Part shown: piece after piece, positions 1-55,252 of the stretch
How positions within the stretch are numbered: position 1 is the first letter of the stretch
Layout of the letters: each line of letters begins with the position of its first letter
Source of the DNA: a virus
DNA: 64,000 bases
Direction: 5' to 3' (one strand)
IMG/VR virus record: IMGVR_UViG_3300048104_000741
Coordinates: 8,650-72,649 of that record
Notes under the pieces: model-generated
Told to the model about the DNA's origin: nothing
The model's input: only the letters and a program-made list of their open reading frames with translations
The model's database searches: none
Translations under genes and position numbers: made by a program

Positions 1-627
1 AACAGGGAGTTTTTTGCCTGCCTTGGCATTTTTAATCATTAATGGAATTAATTTTTCTTCATGTTGATTTGGCCCGTAATTGTTTGAACAGCGAGTAATT
101 AAAATAGGATAATTGAAAGTCTCATAAAAACTACGGCACAACAAGTCAGCACTTGCCTTGCTTGCCGAATAGGGGCTATTGGCTTGTATTGGCGTGTTTT
201 CGGTAAAGGCATCATCCCCTTCGCTCAAAGTTCCATAAACCTCGTCTGTGGACACCTGAAGATATCTCTCGATGGTCGGACAATCATGAAGTAACGTGAG
301 GAGCGAGTGTGCGCCATTTATATTCGTATGAACGAAAGGAGTCGAATCATTTATACTATTATCAACATGACTTTCAGCCGCAAAATTAACAATATAATTT
401 ATATCATTCTTTTGTATTAAATTACGAATACGATCTGTATCATTAATATCGCAAATGGATAAACTGTATCGACTTGAATTGTTAATTTCGTCACTGATGT
501 TATCGTAGCTTGCTGCATATGTTTTTAGATCAACATTATGAATATGATAATTTTTATATTTATTGAATATGTATTTTATGAAATTACTTCCAATAAATCC
601 TAGCCCGCCAGTAACCAATAAATTCAC
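1..627 (-). CDS. rfbB: dTDP-glucose 4,6-dehydratase (runs off the left edge of the window)
   Basis: Manual translation from GTG at 627: NLLVTGGLGFIGSNF, DLKTYAA, NFAAESHVDNSI, VSTDEVYG, YSASKAS, RCSNNYGP. Not in the ORF track. Confidence 0.92.
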   Translation of the reverse strand, partial: MNLLVTGGLGFIGSNFIKYIFNKYKNYHIHNVDLKTYAASYDNISDEINNSSRYSLSICDINDTDRIRNLIQKNDINYIVNFAAESHVDNSINDSTPFVHTNINGAHSLLTLLHDCPTIERYLQVSTDEVYGTLSEGDDAFTENTPIQANSPYSASKASADLLCRSFYETFNYPILITRCSNNYGPNQHEEKLIPLMIKNAKAGKKLPV

Positions 628-1515: not shown

Positions 1516-1713
1516 ATGAAAAACTCTTTAAAGCTAATCAAAAAATTAAAAAAATGCCTTTTATTATTAAATAAAGAACAAATAGAATATGAAATGATAG
1601 AAAAAATAATTAGATCTTTAAAAAGAAAATTAGAAATGGGAGAGAATCCCTACAAGTTTAAATCTAATGCTCAATTAACCGACAACTACTTAAAAGATTT
1701 TCTTGATTTTTAG
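1516..1713 (+). CDS. Hypothetical protein
   Basis: 65 aa ORF preceded by the GTGTA-N9-ATG motif. Confidence 0.55.
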   Translation: MKNSLKLIKKLKKCLLLLNKEQIEYEMIEKIIRSLKRKLEMGENPYKFKSNAQLTDNYLKDFLDF

Positions 1714-1770
1714 GCTTGACATTTACTCTTCTATGTGTAATATTACTTATAGATCTTTGAAATTTTTGCT

Positions 1771-2199
1771 GGGGGTGTACTGGATTCGACTAATGTTGGA
1801 ATTTGGCGCTGCAAGTCGGAGATGCATCTGGCTCCGATATCAAGATGCAAAAGCTATACATGGCGAAGGTTATTATAGTATTGAAGAGCTTATTGAAGCT
1901 GCTACTGAAGAGTACGAGTCTCTCGTGCAATTTGAGCAGGCTGAAGAGCTTGAGATGGTAGCTTAAAGCTGCCCCCTTACTTTCTTTGACGCAGATACTA
2001 GAATAGTAAGGACATTTATCTGCAAAAACAGAAAAGGTTTATCTGTTAATAAACTGTAGTCCGCTGAGTATTTGGAGGCAAATAATTGTAACAGAAAGTT
2101 AGATGTTAATATCGCAACTATAAAAAAAATTAACTAAACTTGTAGGTGCGTCAACCAAAGGCACTTAGGACGCGGGTTCAACTCCCGCCACCTCCACCA
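1771..2199 (+). ncRNA. ssrA: tmRNA (429 nt)
   Basis: 5' GGGGGTGtactggattcgac pairs with 3' CACCTCC-ACCA including the G3:U70 Ala determinant. T-arm gcgggTTCAACTcccgc. PK1 tcggag/ctccga with gcatct/agatgc. Tag frame 1862-1966. Confidence 0.95.
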
Positions 2200-4587: not shown

Positions 4588-5110
4588 CATGGAATTATTA
4601 TTACTTTACGCAGTAGGTTCAATCATATATTATTGTATTCATTTTAAATAAATGATAATTATAGATAATATTAAAAATTATAATTTTCAGTTTGGATTTA
4701 ATCAAACTCAAGATTTTATTTTAGATTCTCTAGAGAAAGAGTTTAAATCAAAACATGGAGACTCTTTTTTTTATGAAAACTCCCTTATTATTATAGTTGA
4801 AAACGAAAAATTCTACCACGTTATTAGAAACAAACATAAAGTTAGAGTTAGTGGAGAACTTCTTGAAAATTTAACCTTAGATATTAATTCTCACCTGTAA
4901 GCAATGAACAAATCAAAATTAAAAGAAATAAAAGAAATAATGGGCTACAAAGGCCTTAGAGAACAAAAAAGACTTTTGAGGAGATTTAAAAAATCGTACT
5001 CAAGTTTAAATCAGGAAGATAAAATAAAAGTTATTAAAGATTTAAAAGAGGCTTTTGAAATAAAATCAAAAAATACTTGATTTTTTAACCTTAACATATA
5101 TTATAAGAAT

Positions 5111-5395
5111 ATGCACAAATTAAAATATTTCTCAGCGCCTTGGTGCGGTCCATGTAAGTTTTTTAAGCCAATCATTAACGAATTAAAAGAAGATGGTTAT
5201 GATATAGAAATTATCAATATAGACGAAGACCAAGAAAAGACTTTAGCTTATGGAGTGCAATCAGTACCTCATTTAGTTTTTGAATCTAAATGTTCTGAAA
5301 AATCTCCAGACTGCAAAGAAGAAATTTTATATAGAGTCTCTGGAGGAGCCTCTAAATCTGATATAGAAAAAATATTAACAACTAAAATCAAATAA
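5111..5395 (+). CDS. Thioredoxin
   Basis: WCGPC active site; GVQSVP. Confidence 0.9.
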   Translation: MHKLKYFSAPWCGPCKFFKPIINELKEDGYDIEIINIDEDQEKTLAYGVQSVPHLVFESKCSEKSPDCKEEILYRVSGGASKSDIEKILTTKIK

Positions 5396-48429: not shown

Positions 48430-49140
48430 AATGCTAAAAATAATTAATTAAATTTTTAATAATGGGTATTGTAGCGAGGTTAATTTGTTGTCCTTGGTTA
48501 AACTTCATCACCCAACTTGTAACTACATAAAAGCAAGTTAATTTTTATTATTTCAAATAAATCTTTAAATTATAAGTTCACACAGGAAAATGATAATTTC
48601 AAATGCTTTTTTTTATTTTCTATTTCCTTCTTTAAATAACTATCCCAACTATACAATATATAAAGATTAGTATAAGGGAATATATAAAGGATAATATAAA
48701 GATTTACATATAGATAAGATATATAATTAAAATGAATAAATTATTAAATATTATATTTTAGGGAGTGGCGAAATTAATTATATAAAAATATTATGAAAAT
48801 TAAAATACTATCAATTATAAAAAATACTATAAAATATATTACAAAAAATATTATATCAAATAAAAAAAAGAACCAAGCGCAAAATAAAACAAATAAAAAA
48901 ACTTTACGAATAACAAGAAATCAGTATGGATTTTTTTCAGTCGAAAATAAAGAAAAATAAATAATAATAGAATTAAATAAACAATTATAATAAATAATAA
49001 AATATTTAAACTAAATAAATATAATAATAAATTCGCGCCAAATAACTAAAAACAAATTTTAATAAAGTTAAATAATAAAATATTTGAAATAATAAAATAT
49101 AGAATCAAAATAATTAAACAAGAAATAAGTTAAAGTAATT
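48430..49140. other. Extremely AT-rich non-coding tract (candidate origin or control region)
   Basis: About 700 bp without long ORFs; A-rich + strand; recurrent GCGCSAAATAA motif. Confidence 0.4.
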
Positions 49141-49142
49141 TG

Positions 49143-49219
49143 GAGGGAGTAGCTCAGATGGATAGAGCATCTGCCTTCTAAGCAGAATGTCGTGAGTTCG
49201 AGTCTCACCTTCCTCGCCA
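49143..49219 (+). tRNA. tRNA-Arg(UCU), CCA encoded
   Basis: Acceptor GAGGGAG/CTTCCTC, D-arm GCTC/GAGC, anticodon arm tctgc-ctTCTaa-gcaga, T-arm gtgag-TTCGAGT-ctcac. Confidence 0.96.
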
Positions 49220-49873: not shown

Positions 49874-50631
49874 GCGTTGTAATACACTGCTGAAGCGGAT
49901 CTTGAGGGAAATTATAAATAATTAAGTATAAAATAAATTAAAATTAAAATAAATTAATGTTAAATAATAAAATAAATTAAAAAATGCTTGACTTAGTCTG
50001 AGTATGGCGCTAGTATGGTTCTATCAATCACATTAATCACACACAAAAAAAGGAAAAATAATGAGTTTAGCAAAATCAGCAAGAGCAAGCGCAGTAATGA
50101 GTAAGGTAAAAGGAGGCGACCCTTTCGCTTTTACTCGTAGGTTCTTGGGTTACAACGAGGCAAAAGAAGGTATATTAGCTCAACAAAGACAGGCTAGTAT
50201 AAAACTACAAAAAATTCTGTTTAATAAAAAAGTGAGGGGGGTAGCATAATGGATACAACAATAAAGCCTCTTAGTGATAAAGTTAGTATGTTTGCAACCA
50301 ACGAAGAGTTGTATAACCAATTAACTCCAAAAGAAATTTCTTTAATTAAATTAGTTAAAGCAGAAGAATTCCTAGAAGATTTATACGGATCAATAATATA
50401 TCCACAGACACAGGATATGTTTCCGCCCAAAAATAGTTACAATAAAATAAAAGACTTATTAAAAGAACTGCGCCAATTAAATAAATAATGAATAAACATA
50501 CTTATAATAATAACTTTAAATATAAAGGACAATCAATAAACATACTAGTATGGAATAAAGATTTTAATCCCTGGAAAACAAAATTAATACTTGACAAATA
50601 AAAAATAAATTTATATAATATAAAACATAAT

Positions 50632-50934
50632 ATGAAATATATAATTATAACTTGCTTAATACTATGCGGTTGCACCTCTCACATTTCCAAAAAACTTCCA
50701 CCTGTTGAAGACACTTCTAAAAAACTTCCACCTCTTGCAGATGGTTATCATAGACTCTTTGATAAGAATAGTGATAGATATGAAGATATTAGATGCATGA
50801 GAAATCCAAAAAAAACTTATGTAACGCATCAAGGGTGCATTATGTGTTGGATAGGTGATGATTTGACGAGTGATTCGCGCGATCCTATAATTATGGATCT
50901 TAAATCTGGATACGGAAAACGAAAAAAGAAATAA
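50632..50934 (+). CDS. Putative lipoprotein with internal 10-aa duplication
   Basis: LCGC lipobox-like; SKKLPPVEDT-SKKLPPLAD. Confidence 0.55.
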   Translation: MKYIIITCLILCGCTSHISKKLPPVEDTSKKLPPLADGYHRLFDKNSDRYEDIRCMRNPKKTYVTHQGCIMCWIGDDLTSDSRDPIIMDLKSGYGKRKKK

Positions 50935-51133
50935 TGAAATACATTTTAATTACATTAATTTTTATTTGCAGTAGTTGCGCGAACAGGCAAACTGTATTCA
51001 CGAAAGAATTAGATGGTTTCGACCACTCATGTCCTACTAAAGGTCATGGAGATTGTTTCCTCTGTGATTCAAAAGACTTTCGGATAAAAAAATACTTGAC
51101 AAATAAATAATAATATACTATAATACTAAACAT

Positions 51134-51388
51134 ATGACAAATACAAAAAAATCAACCGCAATTAACTTTGCTTATTCAAGTTTAGGCTTTTTTGCCGTTT
51201 CATTTTTCATCTGCATTGTCTCCCAAGGTATTGGGGGTTATGGAATGCTTGCTTCTTGCCTCCTTGGTCTTGTGGCATTTGTACTTGGCTTAGTAGAAAA
51301 GAATGCTAAAGCATGGGGATTAGGCTTAATAGCCCCTGTTTTGTTCTTTGCTTTGGTTGTTATAGGTTTAGCAATGGGGATAAGATAA
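51134..51388 (+). CDS. Small membrane protein
   Basis: Three hydrophobic helices. Confidence 0.7.
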   Translation: MTNTKKSTAINFAYSSLGFFAVSFFICIVSQGIGGYGMLASCLLGLVAFVLGLVEKNAKAWGLGLIAPVLFFALVVIGLAMGIR

Positions 51389-51400
51389 ATAAAAAATAAC

Positions 51401-51429
51401 TTGACTTTTAACAAATAATAGAGTATACT
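51401..51429 (+). promoter_or_regulatory. sigma70 promoter of the candidate ncRNA
   Basis: TTGACT-17 nt-TATACT, not followed by an ATG. Confidence 0.8.
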
Positions 51430-51475
51430 ATATAAATCATTGAGAAAGCTAAACTCAATTAAATCAAATAAGTTT

Positions 51476-51487
51476 TGATCTTTAACA
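51476..51487 (+). promoter_or_regulatory. boxA-like antitermination element
   Basis: TGATCTTTAACA, one mismatch from TGCTCTTTAACA; small boxB-like hairpin at 51440-51458. Confidence 0.65.
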
Positions 51488-51496
51488 TTTTAATTT

Positions 51497-51766
51497 CTCA
51501 CAGGTAGCCAATTATAACAATATAGTTTGGACTGAAAAACTACCTGTGAGTAACACTTTGGAAGGGCTTATAATCCTTCCTGTGGGTGACTGAGTAAGCC
51601 TGTGATGAGCGGGCTAAAGTATGCAGATCCCTGTGGTAGGGATGGTAGAGTCCAATCGGATGAGCCAAATGACAAATACCATGTCTAGTCTGTAGTACGA
51701 AGTAGGTACACCATGAACTGATGTTCATCCCGAAAAGTCGGAGGTATACAGTAGTCCTCCCCCACA
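51497..51766 (+). ncRNA. Unidentified structured RNA
   Basis: GC-elevated island with many helices, closed by tgtggg/cccaca; own promoter, boxA and terminator. Confidence 0.7.
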
Positions 51767-51796
51767 TCTATTTATCTATTGTCTTGTTCTATGTTT

Positions 51797-51848
51797 ACCC
51801 CCTTGTGATTCCTGCGATATTCGCTAACGAATCACAAGGGGGTTTTTT
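51797..51848 (+). terminator. Intrinsic terminator
   Basis: acccccttgtgattc/gaatcacaagggggt plus T tract. Confidence 0.88.
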
Positions 51849-51886
51849 GTTTGACAAAATAAACGAGATCCGTCATACTTATAAAC

Positions 51887-52234
51887 ATGATAGGAATAAA
51901 TATAAACGACAAAGAACAATCTTTTACCGAGCAAATAATGGCTGGAGATAAAACAATAGAGACGAGAAATTCAAAGTCTCTTCATCCTTATATAAATAAA
52001 GTAGTAGGTATAATAAGAACAGGTAAAGGTAAAGCTACATTAGTAGGGTATACAAAAATAAAAGAAGCAAAAAAATATAATAATAATTTTGATAAAGATT
52101 ATAATAAACATTTAGTTGCCCCCGATTCTCCTTATCATGGTCAGGATAAATGGGGATATATTTTAGTCGATTCATTTCGATGCGAGCCAAGATTAATTAC
52201 CTCTAAAGGTATAGTTTCCCGAAAATTAGTTTGA
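51887..52234 (+). CDS. ASCH domain protein
   Basis: I.AG.KTIETR motif. Confidence 0.75.
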   Translation: MIGININDKEQSFTEQIMAGDKTIETRNSKSLHPYINKVVGIIRTGKGKATLVGYTKIKEAKKYNNNFDKDYNKHLVAPDSPYHGQDKWGYILVDSFRCEPRLITSKGIVSRKLV

Positions 52235-52744
52235 CACATTAACCATTAACCGTTATAGTATACTCATGATCAATACACTATTAAAAATTATATCTAAAGA
52301 ACAATTCGGCTTTGTCGATTCTAACGACCTTAAGGTGATTGAGGAGGAGATGCCCACCCTTCCATTGCTAATGCGTTTTGGAGCCTGTCGCGAGATCTCA
52401 GAAGCGTCTCTAGTTAAGACCATTATCTCGGAGAAGGAAGCAGCCGGAGATTATATTCGAGATGTCTCTATTCCTGCGAGAGTATTAGACGCGATGTATG
52501 AAACTCCACCCATTCGCGGGTTTGAATCTGAGGTTAAAACTGCCATTGAAACCTTAAGGGCGTAATGGAGCTATTCTTTATTATTGCCTTTGCAATCATC
52601 CTCGGAATAAAACTCTTAAACGAAAATTAATATATATAAATATAGTATACAGTATAATATAAAATACAAAATATAAAATAATATAAAAAGCAAAAAATAT
52701 ATGTATAAACAATAAATAAATAAAATTTTCTTATCATAATAATT

Positions 52745-52775
52745 CCCCTCGTTCCATTCGGAGCGGGGGTTTTTT
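52745..52775 (+). terminator. Intrinsic terminator immediately before repeat R1
   Basis: cccctcgttcc-attc-ggagcggggg plus T6. Confidence 0.8.
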
Positions 52776-52798
52776 ATTGACTTATTCTCTTGCTTTCA

Positions 52799-52870
52799 TA
52801 AGTGGTTGAGTATTAGTGACTTACAGCTGGCGGCTGCCGGATTCCTAAGTTGATGATTATCAATTACTTA
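52799..52870 (+). repeat. 72-bp box-core-box element R1
   Basis: TAAGT-N15-ACTTA, 22-nt core with cggcTgccg, TAAGT-N15-ACTTA. Confidence 0.9.
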
Positions 52871-52933
52871 GCCAAGTTAAATTAATTTAACTTTTTTCTT
52901 GCTATATTTGAAGAACTACCTTAGTATGTATAT

Positions 52934-53335
52934 ATGATTAAGAGAAACCAACACGACCCACGATACATCATCAAGTCAAACCGACCTGTTTATGTATACA
53001 AGAATCTTCACAAGGACTGCTGGTCAGTCAAGCAACACGGATTAGTCAAGGCTCATATCCCAAGAGATCATTCAATTGGAATGTGGGATTGCTATTTCCA
53101 TGTTGATGTTAAGGGCAGAGAAAAGGTTCTTCGTGAGAAGCGGAAGAATGTTCATGCGTTTGTCAAGGGTTATCTTCAAGATGCAGAGAATGTAGACACC
53201 GATCTTCCCGCGACAGAGGTAACATATAATCCATATAAGTATGAGACTTTTGTTGACAAGAACACCGAAAAGTTTGTATACTATGCAGATCAAGTTTTAC
53301 TACAACACAACCAAGTAACCGCCTACACAAGATGA
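52934..53335 (+). CDS. Conserved phage hypothetical protein
   Basis: VYKNLHK.CWS, REKRKNVHAFV.G, YNPY; leaderless TTGCTA-17-TAGTAT-6-ATG. Confidence 0.75.
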   Translation: MIKRNQHDPRYIIKSNRPVYVYKNLHKDCWSVKQHGLVKAHIPRDHSIGMWDCYFHVDVKGREKVLREKRKNVHAFVKGYLQDAENVDTDLPATEVTYNPYKYETFVDKNTEKFVYYADQVLLQHNQVTAYTR

Positions 53336-55252
53336 GAATAGAAGAAAGAATGATAGACTATGCCCAAAAGTGGTATAAAGAAAACGACCTAGAGACAGAG
53401 AAAAAGAACGGAAACGATCTTTATCTTCGAGTCAATGACAATGTATTTACTGAAGTCTCACACTGCGACATCAGACAAAAAGCCATTTTATGGTTGCAAT
53501 CAGAACTAGAAGGAGTTATGTATAATTAAATGAAAGAAGAATTAAATGCAATTAAACATTCTATTGACGGACTCAGCGATGAAATGCTAGAACATCGCAG
53601 ACACGCTAATATGGATGACCTTGTTAAAGTTATGAAAAGCATTAACGAAAACCTCTACTCAATCACATTTGCTCTTGAGGATTTGGCTAAAGAGAAAAAG
53701 ATGCAAAACGAGTTGACAGTCGCACTAAAATAGTTTAGTTTTATATTATGAAACAATTATTAGTTAAAGTTCCCGTGTCACAATGCATTCAAGAAGTCCT
53801 CGACTATATTCAGTATAGCGAAATGGAGGGCGAAGTGGATCCGACAGATTCGTGGTACACCACATATCAATCACTACAAGAGTTGCAAGAGAAAGTTCTT
53901 GATGAAGAAGAAATGTCTTGACACAATTATTCATTTAGTATAGTTTTATATTATGGAAGAAACAATAGACATCACACCAAAATGGACAGCAGTCGTTAGA
54001 ATATTAACTGAAGTGCTGAAAAGCCCAAATGCCGGAAATGCAGATAAGCAAAATGCCACCAATGAATTGCTAAAACTTGCAAAGATCGTGGACGATCAAA
54101 ACGAAAGAGCAAAACAATGACACAAGCAAAGATAAGAGAAACCATTCTAGACATAGTCAGAGGAGAAATGGCATATGCCGATCCAATGTCCAAAGTATGC
54201 CTAGAGCAACATGAACGCCATCCTGAAAAGTTTCCACTTGGTAGCACTTTTCAGTCCGCAGAAGAAGTTTTAGAAGATATTGTTTTAAGCTTGACCTCAT
54301 TGCAAAATGAGCTTAGGATAGAATCATCTTTTCAATCAGCACAACTATAAACACAAGGAACAACATGACAAAAGCACAGATAGAATCAAGAGTAGAAGGA
54401 TGGAATTGGAACATGAACATCTTCGAGATATACGATGAACTCAGAGATGGGCATACAGGAGAAGAGCAAGAGCAACTTTTAACTCATGCATATAATTATT
54501 TCAATAACGATGTAATGATTAAAGAGCTTGCGAATCATTTTTGCGTAACTATTCATACAGACGAAGACTCACCGATACCTTGCTAAAATGAAGATGACAG
54601 AGATAAACATAAGAAACGAAAACATAATCCCTCAAGGTCAACATCTTGCCGTGATCGAAAGAAGCGATTTCTATAAGGACGACTACGATCAAGCTCTTAT
54701 TCTTTATGGATGGGATGAGGTTGGGACATTTGAATCAGAGTTTAAAGATCCGATTTATGTTTTTATTTCTTGACATCATCTAAAAAACCTACATAATTAA
54801 AATCATGAACAACTACATAGAAGCAGTATGCGAAGGCAAACCACTTGACCTTCCTAATTATAACGAAAATTCAGAGCAATGGGAGATTTACTTTGAGGAG
54901 TCAGCGACACCTTATCACCCATACGATCAAAGAGATTTACTCGCAGTAAGTTTCGATTCAGCACAAGAAGCTTGCGACGCTTATAATTTCTACAACACGA
55001 GAGGAGAAAGCAAATAACATGAAAAAACTATTATTAAAAATTTATCGTTGGGTTAATCCTCTATACCAAGTGGTTTATACCACCCAAGACGGAAGAACAG
55101 AAATGTACACAATTACAGAACCTCAATATAAAAACGAATTCGGCAACATAAAAGAAGGTAAAAAAGTTGTGGGTTTTAGAAGCTTTTGTATCAATCGAGA
55201 TGGCATTCGCTCTTTTCGCTACGATAGAATCACAGCCTTAAATAAAGTTTAA
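53332..55252 (+). other. Cluster of small hypothetical ORFs in module R1-R2
   Basis: Co-oriented ORFs of 55-77 aa with internal promoters. Confidence 0.65.

What the first reader, a model, noticed from the sequence alone, without database searches (positions are those of the whole stretch)
51401..51848. Stand-alone unidentified structured RNA gene
Seen: promoter TTGACT-17-TATACT with no following ATG (unlike neighbouring promoters), then a hairpin and boxA. An 11-bp perfect helix follows (51497-51507/51540-51550), then the hairpin ggaaggg/tccttcc. Next is a 186-nt multibranch domain closed by tgtggg 51581/cccaca 51761. It contains agcctg/cgggct, tgcaga/tctgta, atccct/agggat, tggta/tacca, atgaac/gttcat and ggagg/cctcc. 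A strong terminator ends the unit. GC is well above the flanks and overlapping ORFs are unconvincing. By eye it lacks hallmarks of tRNA, RNase P, SRP or group I/II introns. Inference: a highly expressed phage ncRNA, such as a ribozyme, protein sponge or anti-defence decoy.
Basis: partly seen in the sequence, partly recalled or inferred. Interest (0 to 1): 0.8.

Follow-up and report, generated by a model that had tools for sequence, protein, structure and literature searches.

The report
Stand-alone manA RNA gene in phage
The structured RNA is a known but functionally unsolved family (manA RNA), yet in this group of marine phages it is its own small gene with an rRNA-style leader and its own terminator, not the leader of a protein gene.

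Summary
The RNA is not unidentified, though: window 51560-51770 is a full-length match to Rfam RF01745, manA RNA (80.8 bits, cut-off 55.2). manA is a 2010 riboswitch candidate from marine phages with no known ligand.

The setting is new. In 139 related marine units the same architecture recurs:
- a sigma-70 promoter;
- a 5' hairpin, often closed into a pseudoknot;
- a boxA-like motif (131 of 134 units);
- 0 to about 4 swappable long hairpins; the window's 11-bp helix is one such module, with covariation;
- manA;
- a non-homologous intrinsic terminator (100 of 105 distinct units, against 29 of 279 random windows);
- the next gene's own promoter, with ATG 6-7 nt after the -10 box.

No antiterminator pairing was detected. 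Cyanophage-type manA copies lack all of this and sit before SD+ATG. All five tmRNA genes examined in these phages also have a boxA-like motif just upstream (3 fit the motif pattern, 2 are one base off).

My reading is a stand-alone, Nus-protected stable phage RNA of about 420 nt that probably acts in trans. Its partner is unknown. It is a new variant of a known kind, of moderate interest.

The parts
51401..51429 (+). Sigma-70-type promoter TTGACT-17-TATACT; inferred transcript start near 51436
   Evidence: 10 of 12 matches. 86 of 98 distinct leaders of relatives have TTGACN-16..18-TANNNT in the 100 nt before boxA. The start site is inferred, not mapped.
51439..51459 (+). 5'-terminal leader hairpin: ATTGAG, 9-nt loop, CTCAAT
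   Evidence: The stem is conserved, with a TTGAG/CTCAA to TTAAG/CTTAA compensatory change in relatives (A3).
51471..51476 (+). Linker segment AGTTTT that can pair with loop AAAGCT (51445-51450): a pseudoknot abutting boxA
   Evidence: In relatives with 9-nt loops, loop and linker covary. Pairs seen: GGGC/GCCC, GGGGT/GCCCC, GAAGTAA/TTACTTC, GTCT/AGAC, GGAT/ATCC, AAGGTTT/AAACCTT, AAGTC/GACTT. Variants with 7-nt loops lack both partners.
51477..51487 (+). boxA-like motif GATCTTTAACA
   Evidence: single exact copy in the window. 131 of 134 related units have G[AT]TCTTT[ATG]A[CAT]A upstream. Published boxA sequences: GYTCTTTAANA (PMC5725501); E. coli UGCUCUUUAACA and B. subtilis AUGAUCUUUGAAA (PMC13753749).
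51497..51550 (+). Lineage-specific inserted hairpin module: 11-bp perfect helix plus an irregular upper stem
   Evidence: In a family of 12 sequences, 5 of the 12 consensus pairs keep pairing through changes on both sides. 44 of 131 relatives have no insert at this site and 87 have inserts (distance from boxA end to GTGACTGA is 90-381 nt instead of 38-41).
51560..51770 (+). manA RNA (Rfam RF01745): P1 hairpin 51560-51580 and a multi-branch core closed by 51581-51586 with 51761-51766
   Evidence: 80.8 bits (cut-off 55.2), model positions 1-192 of 192, E 5.8e-21. Covariation in 15 relatives: 92% of cells paired against 37-51% in the slid controls, and 19 of 49 pairs with changes on both sides.
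51798..51848 (+). Intrinsic terminator: 14-bp GC-rich stem 51798-51811 with 51829-51842, then a T run
   Evidence: 100 of 105 distinct related units have a predicted terminator within 170 nt after manA, in 78 distinct sequences. Baseline: 29 of 279 random windows.
51851..51879 (+). Own promoter of the next gene (TTGACA-17-CATACT), starting inside the terminator's T tail
   Evidence: 79 of the 100 units with a terminator have such a promoter within 110 nt, mostly 4-11 nt after the stem.
51887..52234 (+). Next gene (115 aa, weak ASCH-like match). ATG lies 7 nt after the -10 box and there is no SD, so it is probably leaderless. It is not part of the RNA unit.
   Evidence: ASCH E 0.0012, below Pfam's cut-off. 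22 loci with homologues of this gene lack manA. The downstream gene differs among relatives, with at least 8 families.

Best explanation
The finding is the 3' domain-bearing, stand-alone gene for a composite non-coding RNA of about 420 nt. Its core (51560-51770) is a manA RNA (Rfam RF01745).

Shown:
- The fold belongs to the family, and its helices covary in relatives.
- A clade of uncultured AT-rich marine phages (with rIIA/rIIB, tmRNA and tRNA) keeps the whole unit. In order it has a promoter, a 5' hairpin (often a pseudoknot), a boxA-like motif, a slot holding 0 to about 4 swappable long hairpins, manA, and an intrinsic terminator whose sequence is not conserved.
- The next gene then has its own promoter, placed for a leaderless mRNA.

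Inferred mechanism:
1. Host sigma-70 RNA polymerase starts near 51436, early in infection.
2. The boxA RNA recruits host NusB/S10 and the other Nus factors, as in rRNA operons and CRISPR arrays. This protects the untranslated transcript from Rho and may help its long-range closing helix to form.
3. The intrinsic terminator releases an RNA capped by hairpins at both ends.
4. The invariant junction and loop nucleotides of manA then bind a conserved partner in trans. The partner could be a small molecule or a host or phage macromolecule and is unknown. The RNA does not switch the adjacent gene in cis.
For: Identity:
- cmscan gives 80.8 bits against a cut-off of 55.2, over model positions 1-192 of 192.
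- 30 of 30 related loci scanned reach the cut-off.
- Covariation: 19 of 49 pairs change on both sides, and 92% of cells are paired against 37-51% in the slid controls.

Stand-alone unit:
- 131 of 134 units with at least 150 nt upstream have the boxA-like motif.
- 86 of 98 distinct leaders have a consensus-type promoter.
- 100 of 105 distinct units have a terminator, against 29 of 279 random windows. Cyanophage-type copies have 1 of 23.
- 79 of those 100 are followed by a new promoter, and in 57 of the 79 the ATG lies 6-7 nt after the -10 box.
- The 78 distinct terminators show no complementarity of the 5' arm to manA: mean z +0.23, with 1 of 78 below -2.
- Downstream genes fall into at least 8 families.
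- Loci with homologues of the window's downstream gene lack manA: 0 of 22.
- A complete 184-kb relative has exactly one copy.

boxA:
- The motif agrees with published boxA sequences.
- A 5' hairpin followed directly by boxA is the B. subtilis rrn arrangement.
- A boxA-like motif also precedes the tmRNA gene by 6-22 nt in 5 of 5 related phages. Three fit the motif pattern and two are one base off.
- A promoter-plus-boxA pattern gave 8 hits in 5 genomes, against 1 for the reversed-pattern control. Six of the 8 precede manA or tmRNA.
Against: - No expression data.
- Rfam and the 2010 description file manA as cis-regulatory, and the cyanophage-type copies do sit 30-40 nt before SD+ATG (15 of 23). 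A purely trans-acting role must therefore also explain those copies.
- The window's boxA differs from the gamma-proteobacterial consensus at position 2 (A instead of Y). 46 of the 131 variants have T at position 8.
- Nus binding is untested and the host is unknown.
- The 3' terminator arm shows slight excess complementarity to manA: mean z -0.68, with 11 of 78 below -2.
- 59 of 81 downstream ORFs belong to one family, so some linkage to a neighbouring gene exists.
- The sequences are related, so counts of units are not independent events.
Confidence: 0.62

Rival explanations
1. It is a classical cis-acting riboswitch. manA is an aptamer and the hairpin at 51798-51848 is its terminator expression platform. 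Ligand binding would set how much transcription reads through into the downstream early genes.
For: manA was proposed as a riboswitch candidate located in 5' UTRs (PMC2864571, passages read). Rfam types it Cis-reg. Other phage copies precede SD+ATG. A terminator follows within 8-122 nt in 100 of 105 units. The 3' arm shows weak excess complementarity to manA.
Against: The 5' terminator arm has no excess complementarity to manA: mean z +0.23, with 1 of 78 below -2. The spacing and sequence of the terminators are not conserved. The next gene has its own near-consensus promoter and an ATG 6-7 nt after the -10 box with no SD, so a read-through RNA would bury a leaderless start codon. The downstream gene varies. 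A boxA leader is typical of untranslated RNAs, not of riboswitch leaders.
Confidence: 0.15
2. The unit is a precursor that is cut up. The long hairpins between boxA and manA would be RNase III-type processing sites or sources of small RNAs. manA would then be either the released product or a 3' stabiliser. In the same vein, the boxA-like motif would be a processing or leader signal rather than a Nus-factor site.
For: The modules are long, irregular helices with asymmetric internal loops, numbering 0 to about 4 and in at least 8 sequence types, always in the same slot. Their stems covary. The motif lies 6-22 nt before the mature tmRNA 5' end, where a leader must be removed. The resemblance to T7 RNase III sites is recalled and was not tested.
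Against: 44 of 131 units have no module at all, so processing at a module cannot be essential. The motif matches published boxA sequences closely. This rival is compatible with the stand-alone-gene reading and differs only in what happens after transcription.
Confidence: 0.15
3. There is no RNA gene. The region would be a chance GC-rich stretch or a small protein gene, such as the 75-aa minus-strand ORF 51540-51767 or the 76-aa plus-strand ORF 51721-51951.
For: Both ORFs exist. The minus strand has few stop codons in all three frames.
Against: The covariance-model E-value is 5.8e-21. Compensatory changes occur in 19 of 49 pairs. No frame is open through manA in 10 of 15 relatives, and the window's frame carries 1-3 stops in L002, L006, L012, L016, L018, L022 and L029. 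Indels are not multiples of three.
Confidence: 0.01

Closest known systems
manA RNA motif (Rfam RF01745; Weinberg et al. 2010, PMC2864571)
   Same: Same fold and the same invariant junction and loop sequences (GUGACUGA, GGUAUACAGUA). The match is full length and above the curated cut-off. It is marine and phage-borne.
   Different: The family is described as a 5' UTR element and riboswitch candidate before genes for sugar metabolism, nucleotide synthesis, chaperones and photosynthesis. Here it is a separate transcription unit with a boxA leader, inserted hairpin modules and its own terminator. The neighbours are small early genes of unknown function. This clade also carries insertions in two arms relative to the model.
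rRNA operon leaders (5' hairpin or boxB, then boxA) and boxA leaders of CRISPR arrays
   Same: A promoter-proximal boxA-type sequence sits at the start of an untranslated, structured RNA. In B. subtilis rrn a small 5' hairpin is directly followed by boxA (PMC13753749). boxA is necessary and sufficient for the rrn antitermination complex (PMC10250234). A CRISPR-array boxA raised precursor RNA about 10-fold (PMC7862264).
   Different: Here it is phage-encoded, on a transcript of only about 420 nt that ends at an intrinsic terminator. No boxC was looked for. The hairpin loop forms a pseudoknot with the linker. Binding by NusB/S10 is untested.
Lambda nut sites (boxA plus boxB with N protein)
   Same: A phage uses a boxA RNA element to modify host RNA polymerase (PMC10250234 and PMC12360218, passages read).
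   Different: The order is hairpin then boxA, as in rrn, not boxA then boxB as in nut. No N-like protein was identified. The unit stops at a terminator rather than reading through terminators into genes.
Other phage-encoded stable RNAs: the tmRNA in this window; T4 species 1 and 2 RNAs (recalled, not from a call)
   Same: Small stable RNAs encoded by large lytic phages. In this clade, tmRNA and manA share the promoter-plus-boxA arrangement.
   Different: tmRNA has a known function. manA has none.
Riboswitch-derived RNAs that act in trans (Listeria SreA; Enterococcus/Listeria EutX/Rli55; recalled, not from a call)
   Same: An aptamer-like fold ended by a terminator gives a free RNA that acts on other molecules.
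   Different: Those RNAs keep a ligand-controlled terminator and have known ligands. Here no switch pairing was detected and no ligand is known.

Membership tests
manA RNA (Rfam RF01745) | Covariance-model score at or above the curated gathering score (55.2 bits) | tested here: met
   80.8 bits, E 5.8e-21.
manA RNA (Rfam RF01745) | Full-length structure: P1 hairpin plus a multi-branch core closed by a 5-bp helix | tested here: met
   Model positions 1-192 of 192. 47 of 49 projected pairs are canonical in the window.
manA RNA (Rfam RF01745) | Helices supported by covariation among homologues | tested here: met
   In 15 clade sequences, 19 of 49 pairs change on both sides (0 of 500 shuffles reach this). 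92% of cells are paired against 37-51% in the slid controls.
manA RNA (Rfam RF01745) | Invariant junction and loop motifs (GUGACUGA; GGUAUACAGUA) | tested here: met
   Invariant in the 37-sequence alignment. These two motifs were also the search pattern, so their invariance among the hits is partly by construction.
manA RNA (Rfam RF01745) | Location in the 5' UTR of a protein gene (cis-regulatory type) | tested here: not met
   A terminator and a new promoter separate it from the next gene. This concerns the family's annotated role, not its fold. The cyanophage-type copies do meet it.
Riboswitch (as a class) | Expression platform with mutually exclusive pairing to the aptamer | tested here: not met
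   5' arm of 78 distinct terminators against manA: mean z +0.23, with 1 of 78 below -2. 3' arm: mean z -0.68. In the minimum-energy fold, manA and the terminator form together.
Riboswitch (as a class) | Specific binding of a small-molecule ligand | not testable with these tools
   No ligand is reported in the papers found.
boxA / Nus-factor antitermination leader | Sequence matching a boxA consensus | tested here: inconclusive
   The window matches GYTCTTTAANA at 10 of 11 positions. The A at position 2 is as in the B. subtilis rrn boxA. Among the 131 motif-bearing units, 10 match the consensus perfectly, 75 differ only at position 2, and 46 have T at position 8.
boxA / Nus-factor antitermination leader | Promoter-proximal position in an untranslated RNA, after a small 5' hairpin | tested here: met
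   The motif lies 42-71 nt after the -10 box in 84 of the 86 leaders with a promoter, preceded by a conserved hairpin. The tmRNA genes have the same arrangement.
boxA / Nus-factor antitermination leader | Binding of NusB/S10 and protection from Rho | not testable with these tools
   Needs biochemistry or genetics. The host is unknown.

The most novel reading that the evidence does not exclude
manA would not be a riboswitch at all. It would be an autonomous, trans-acting phage RNA domain, for example a sponge or decoy for a conserved host factor or signalling molecule. One abundant group of marine phages would express it as a free stable RNA by borrowing the host's rRNA-type Nus/boxA machinery, and would use the same leader for its tmRNA. 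The slot between boxA and manA would carry exchangeable hairpin modules that add further binding or processing functions. Together this would be a modular phage stable-RNA gene of a kind not yet described.
Probability: 0.3. Interest if true: 0.7.

Novelty: new variant of a known kind. Interest (0 to 1): 0.5.

Why it matters
manA has been an orphan riboswitch candidate since 2010. In the searchable library only two papers discuss it, and neither assigns a function. More than 100 distinct marine phage sequences carry it as a terminator-bounded gene of its own, uncoupled from any particular downstream gene. This argues that the fold has a function independent of cis regulation, and that redirects the search for its partner from reporter assays towards pull-downs and trans phenotypes.

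The analysis also points to phage use of rRNA-type boxA leaders for non-coding RNAs (manA and tmRNA). My two searches on this point found no report of it. Finally, it defines a set of covarying hairpin modules that match no Rfam family at the gathering score in the 30 relatives' loci and the window that were scanned.

Tried and rejected
- blastn in distant mode of 51134-52234 against 50,697 phage records found no match. No cultured phage carries a close copy.
- Homologues of the downstream ASCH-like gene: 22 loci, and none has manA. The gene and the RNA are therefore not linked.
- The genome-contig scan gave 18 pattern hits, of which only 2 are real manA by nhmmer (L200, L204). Both lie on short contigs of metagenome bins, probably binned phage DNA, so they give no usable host assignment.
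- Pelagibacter phage HTVC008M was tested as a possible relative. It has only a sub-threshold manA-like match (25.9 bits), before its ssDNA-binding protein gene. That is the cyanophage-type setting, not this clade.
- Hammerhead-like letters (CUGAUG ... GAAA ... GUC) seen by eye were rejected. They lie inside a conserved hairpin, and no ribozyme family matched at E up to 10.
- Leader-trailer pairing, as in rRNA precursors, was looked for by eye in the window and in the relatives. No conserved complementarity was seen. This was not tested formally.
- The alternative small hairpin 51463-51479 in the minimum-energy fold is not conserved in alignment A3.
- Pfam and PHROG searches of the neighbouring small proteins were uninformative.
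- Two further promoter-plus-boxA hits, in G006 and G002, look coding or chance.
- One paper search was wasted because the term manA matched words beginning 'mana...'.
- Supplementary files of Weinberg 2010 list the individual manA loci and their flanks. They could not be seen and may already show terminator-flanked copies.

Full report
WHAT IS THERE

The window is most of a 72.6-kb uncultured virus record, estimated 53% complete. It is AT-rich and carries rIIA and rIIB homologues, tail-fibre, clamp-loader and HNH genes. It also carries a tmRNA gene and a tRNA-Arg gene.

The finding lies in a run of small genes, each with its own consensus-type promoter. The helix tggta/tacca conflicts with the covariation-supported pairing. 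The stretch 51435-51850 folds far better than shuffles, with z = -5.8.

IDENTITY

cmscan against Rfam 15 places 51560-51770 in RF01745, manA RNA. The score is 80.8 bits against a gathering score of 55.2, the match covers model positions 1-192 of 192, and E is 5.8e-21. Projecting the family's consensus structure onto the window gives 49 pairs, 47 of them canonical.

The RNA is therefore not unidentified.

manA was described in 2010 as a riboswitch candidate. [quoted passage not shown] The only other paper in the library that discusses it is an annotation of cyanophage S-CREM1, which says its regulatory role 'remains to be further verified' (PMC9964418, passages read). Searches found nothing else.

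RELATIVES

A pattern built from two invariant motifs found 46 loci in IMG/VR. A genome-contig scan gave 18 hits, of which 2 are real.

The sequences fall into two groups:
- Group A is the window's clade, 62-85% identical to the window's manA. It has 139 units counting duplicates and 114 distinct ones.
- Group B is the cyanophage type, about 50% identical, with 24 distinct units.

All 30 group-A loci that I scanned with Rfam reach the manA cut-off. They show no other family apart from tRNA and tmRNA. Within 15 group-A sequences the manA structure covaries. 92% of cells are paired against 37-51% when partners are slid, and 19 of 49 pairs change on both sides (shuffle mean 7.7, 0 of 500 shuffles as high). 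No reading frame is conserved across the element.

ARCHITECTURE OF THE UNIT IN GROUP A

Upstream of manA:
- 86 of 98 distinct leaders have TTGACN-16..18-TANNNT.
- A conserved hairpin follows, with arms T(T/A)(G/A)AG and CT(C/T)AA.
- When the hairpin loop has 9 nt, it is complementary to the linker just 5' of the next motif. At least seven different complementary sequence pairs occur, which indicates a pseudoknot.
- Next comes G[AT]TCTTT[ATG]A[CAT]A, present in 131 of 134 units that have at least 150 nt upstream.

Between that motif and manA:
- 44 of 131 units have nothing extra; the distance to GTGACTGA is 38-41 nt.
- 87 of 131 carry inserts; the distance is 90-381 nt.
- The inserts are one to about four long, independently folding hairpins of several recurring types, in various combinations. 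There are 86 distinct inserts.
- The window's 11-bp helix (51497-51550) is one such module. In its 12-member family, 5 of 12 consensus pairs keep pairing through changes on both sides.

Downstream of manA:
- 100 of 105 distinct units have a predicted intrinsic terminator within 170 nt. It starts 8-122 nt after manA and occurs in 78 distinct sequences.
- The same detector fires in 29 of 279 random windows of the same loci and in 1 of 23 group-B units.
- In 79 of the 100, a new TTGAC-type promoter follows, mostly 4-11 nt after the stem.
- In 57 of those 79 the ATG lies 6-7 nt after the -10 box, with no SD. These look like leaderless mRNAs.
- The ORFs behind these promoters fall into at least 8 families. 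59 of 81 belong to one 84-aa family and 5 of 81, the window's included, to the ASCH-like family.
- Loci with homologues of the window's downstream gene have no manA: 0 of 22.

Group B is different. The promoter abuts manA, there is no boxA-like leader, 1 of 23 units has a terminator, and 15 of 23 have SD+ATG within 120 nt. In one case the downstream gene is annotated as the ssDNA-binding protein, in Pelagibacter phage HTVC008M. That phage has only a 25.9-bit manA-like element.

IS THE TERMINATOR A SWITCH?

I compared each of the 78 distinct terminator arms with its own manA and linker, against shuffled arms. The 5' arm shows no excess complementarity: mean z +0.23, with 1 of 78 below -2. The 3' arm shows a slight excess: mean z -0.68, with 11 of 78 below -2. 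In the window's minimum-energy fold, manA and the terminator form together.

Taken with the separate promoter and the leaderless start of the next gene, this speaks against a terminator/antiterminator riboswitch. It does not exclude one.

THE BOXA READING

Published boxA sequences:
- GYTCTTTAANA for gamma-proteobacteria (PMC5725501).
- UGCUCUUUAACA for E. coli and AUGAUCUUUGAAA for B. subtilis. In B. subtilis rrn operons a small 5'-terminal hairpin is immediately followed by boxA (PMC13753749).
- GTTCTTTAAAA upstream of a Legionella CRISPR array. There it raised precursor RNA about 10-fold (PMC7862264).

The window's GATCTTTAACA is a blend of these. Ten group-A units match the gamma consensus exactly and 75 differ only at position 2.

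The tmRNA genes of these phages give separate support, although the phages are related. All 5 examined have a boxA-like motif 6-22 nt before the tmRNA:
- window: GATCTTTGAAA, which is the B. subtilis core;
- L021: GTTCTTTAACA;
- G001: GTTCTTTAAAA;
- G006 and G002: each one base off.

A combined promoter-plus-boxA pattern hit 8 places in five genomes, about 580 kb in all, against 1 for the reversed-pattern control. Five of the 8 are the manA units and one is the window's tmRNA. The other two look coding or chance.

boxA is necessary and sufficient to assemble the rrn antitermination complex, and that complex shields untranslated RNA from Rho (PMC10250234 and PMC12360218, passages read). That host Nus factors bind this phage motif is inference.

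MOST LIKELY MECHANISM

Shown: family membership, covariation, and the conserved order promoter, hairpin/pseudoknot, boxA-like motif, module slot, manA, terminator, next promoter.

Inferred:
1. Early transcription by host sigma-70 polymerase starts near 51436.
2. Nus-factor loading at boxA protects the untranslated RNA from Rho and may help the 180-nt-range closing helix to form.
3. The RNA is released at the intrinsic terminator as a stable molecule of about 420 nt with hairpins at both ends.
4. It then acts in trans through the invariant unpaired nucleotides of manA.

The partner is unknown. A trans-acting binding role (sponge or decoy) is the simplest function that fits both the free RNA of group A and the 5' UTR copies of group B, but it is not demonstrated.

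My estimates: about 0.98 that this is a manA RNA, about 0.85 that it is a separate transcription unit in this clade, about 0.6 that the motif works as a boxA, and about 0.45 that it acts in trans.

WHAT COULD NOT BE DONE

- Host assignment. The only genome hits are short contigs in metagenome bins.
- The supplements of the 2010 paper, which list the original loci.

VERDICT

The label 'unidentified' is wrong, because this is manA RNA. The 'stand-alone gene' reading is well supported by comparison and departs from the family's cis-regulatory annotation.

It is a new variant of a known kind. Interest is moderate (0.5). It gives a long-orphan RNA family a testable alternative to the riboswitch hypothesis, and it suggests that phages use rRNA-type boxA leaders for their own stable RNAs.

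Noticed in passing
window 1706-2199: A phage-encoded one-piece tmRNA (Rfam 118 bits; ARAGORN tag peptide ATEEYESLVQFEQAEELEMVA). It has its own TTGACA promoter and a boxA-like GATCTTTGAAA at 1752-1762, 8 nt before the tmRNA. Related phages (L021, G001, G002, G006) also have a boxA-like motif 6-22 nt before their tmRNA.
   Followed up: yes
window 49900-54500: Many small early-type genes each have their own near-consensus TTGACA-17-TATAAT promoter. The -10 box ends only 6-12 nt before the ATG, with no Shine-Dalgarno sequence (for example 51096-51134, 51851-51887, 52231-52266). The mRNAs appear leaderless or nearly so. The same holds after the manA unit in 57 of 79 relatives.
   Followed up: partly
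window 48465-48540; also L037 763-818, L076, L083, L085, L100, L117, L169, L184, L186 (twice): A repeated intergenic element, GGTATTGTAGCG, then 30-60 variable bases, then GTAACTACAT. It is found after rIIB in the window and at 10 places in 9 related loci, once directly after a manA that lacks a terminator (L037). The window copy does not fold better than shuffles (z -0.41). Its nature is unknown.
   Followed up: partly
window 48540-49140: A non-coding stretch of about 600 nt, extremely AT-rich (GC about 0.2), upstream of tRNA-Arg(TCT) at 49143-49219. No boxA-like motif is visible in the ~60 nt directly before this tRNA (read by eye), and the pattern scan of the window found none there.
   Followed up: no
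L208 1450-1760 (NC_020484 about 4990-5290): Pelagibacter phage HTVC008M has a promoter and a structured, sub-threshold manA-like element (25.9 bits) directly before its ssDNA-binding protein gene. It overlaps the annotated hypothetical ORF gp008, which may therefore be spurious.
   Followed up: partly
L003, L033, L042, L023, L038 and other group-B loci, upstream of manA: In the cyanophage-type loci where a hairpin precedes manA (L023, L038 and others), its loop holds the -35 TTGACA and it is followed by a T run. A terminator and a promoter appear to overlap there. L003, L033 and L042 show only the TTGACA.
   Followed up: no
window 52934-53335 and L086 7270-7680: Homologues of Mycobacterium phage L5 gp82 (Pfam PF25735, E 1e-32 and 2e-28) occur among the early genes. 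In L086 this gene is the one directly after the manA unit.
   Followed up: no
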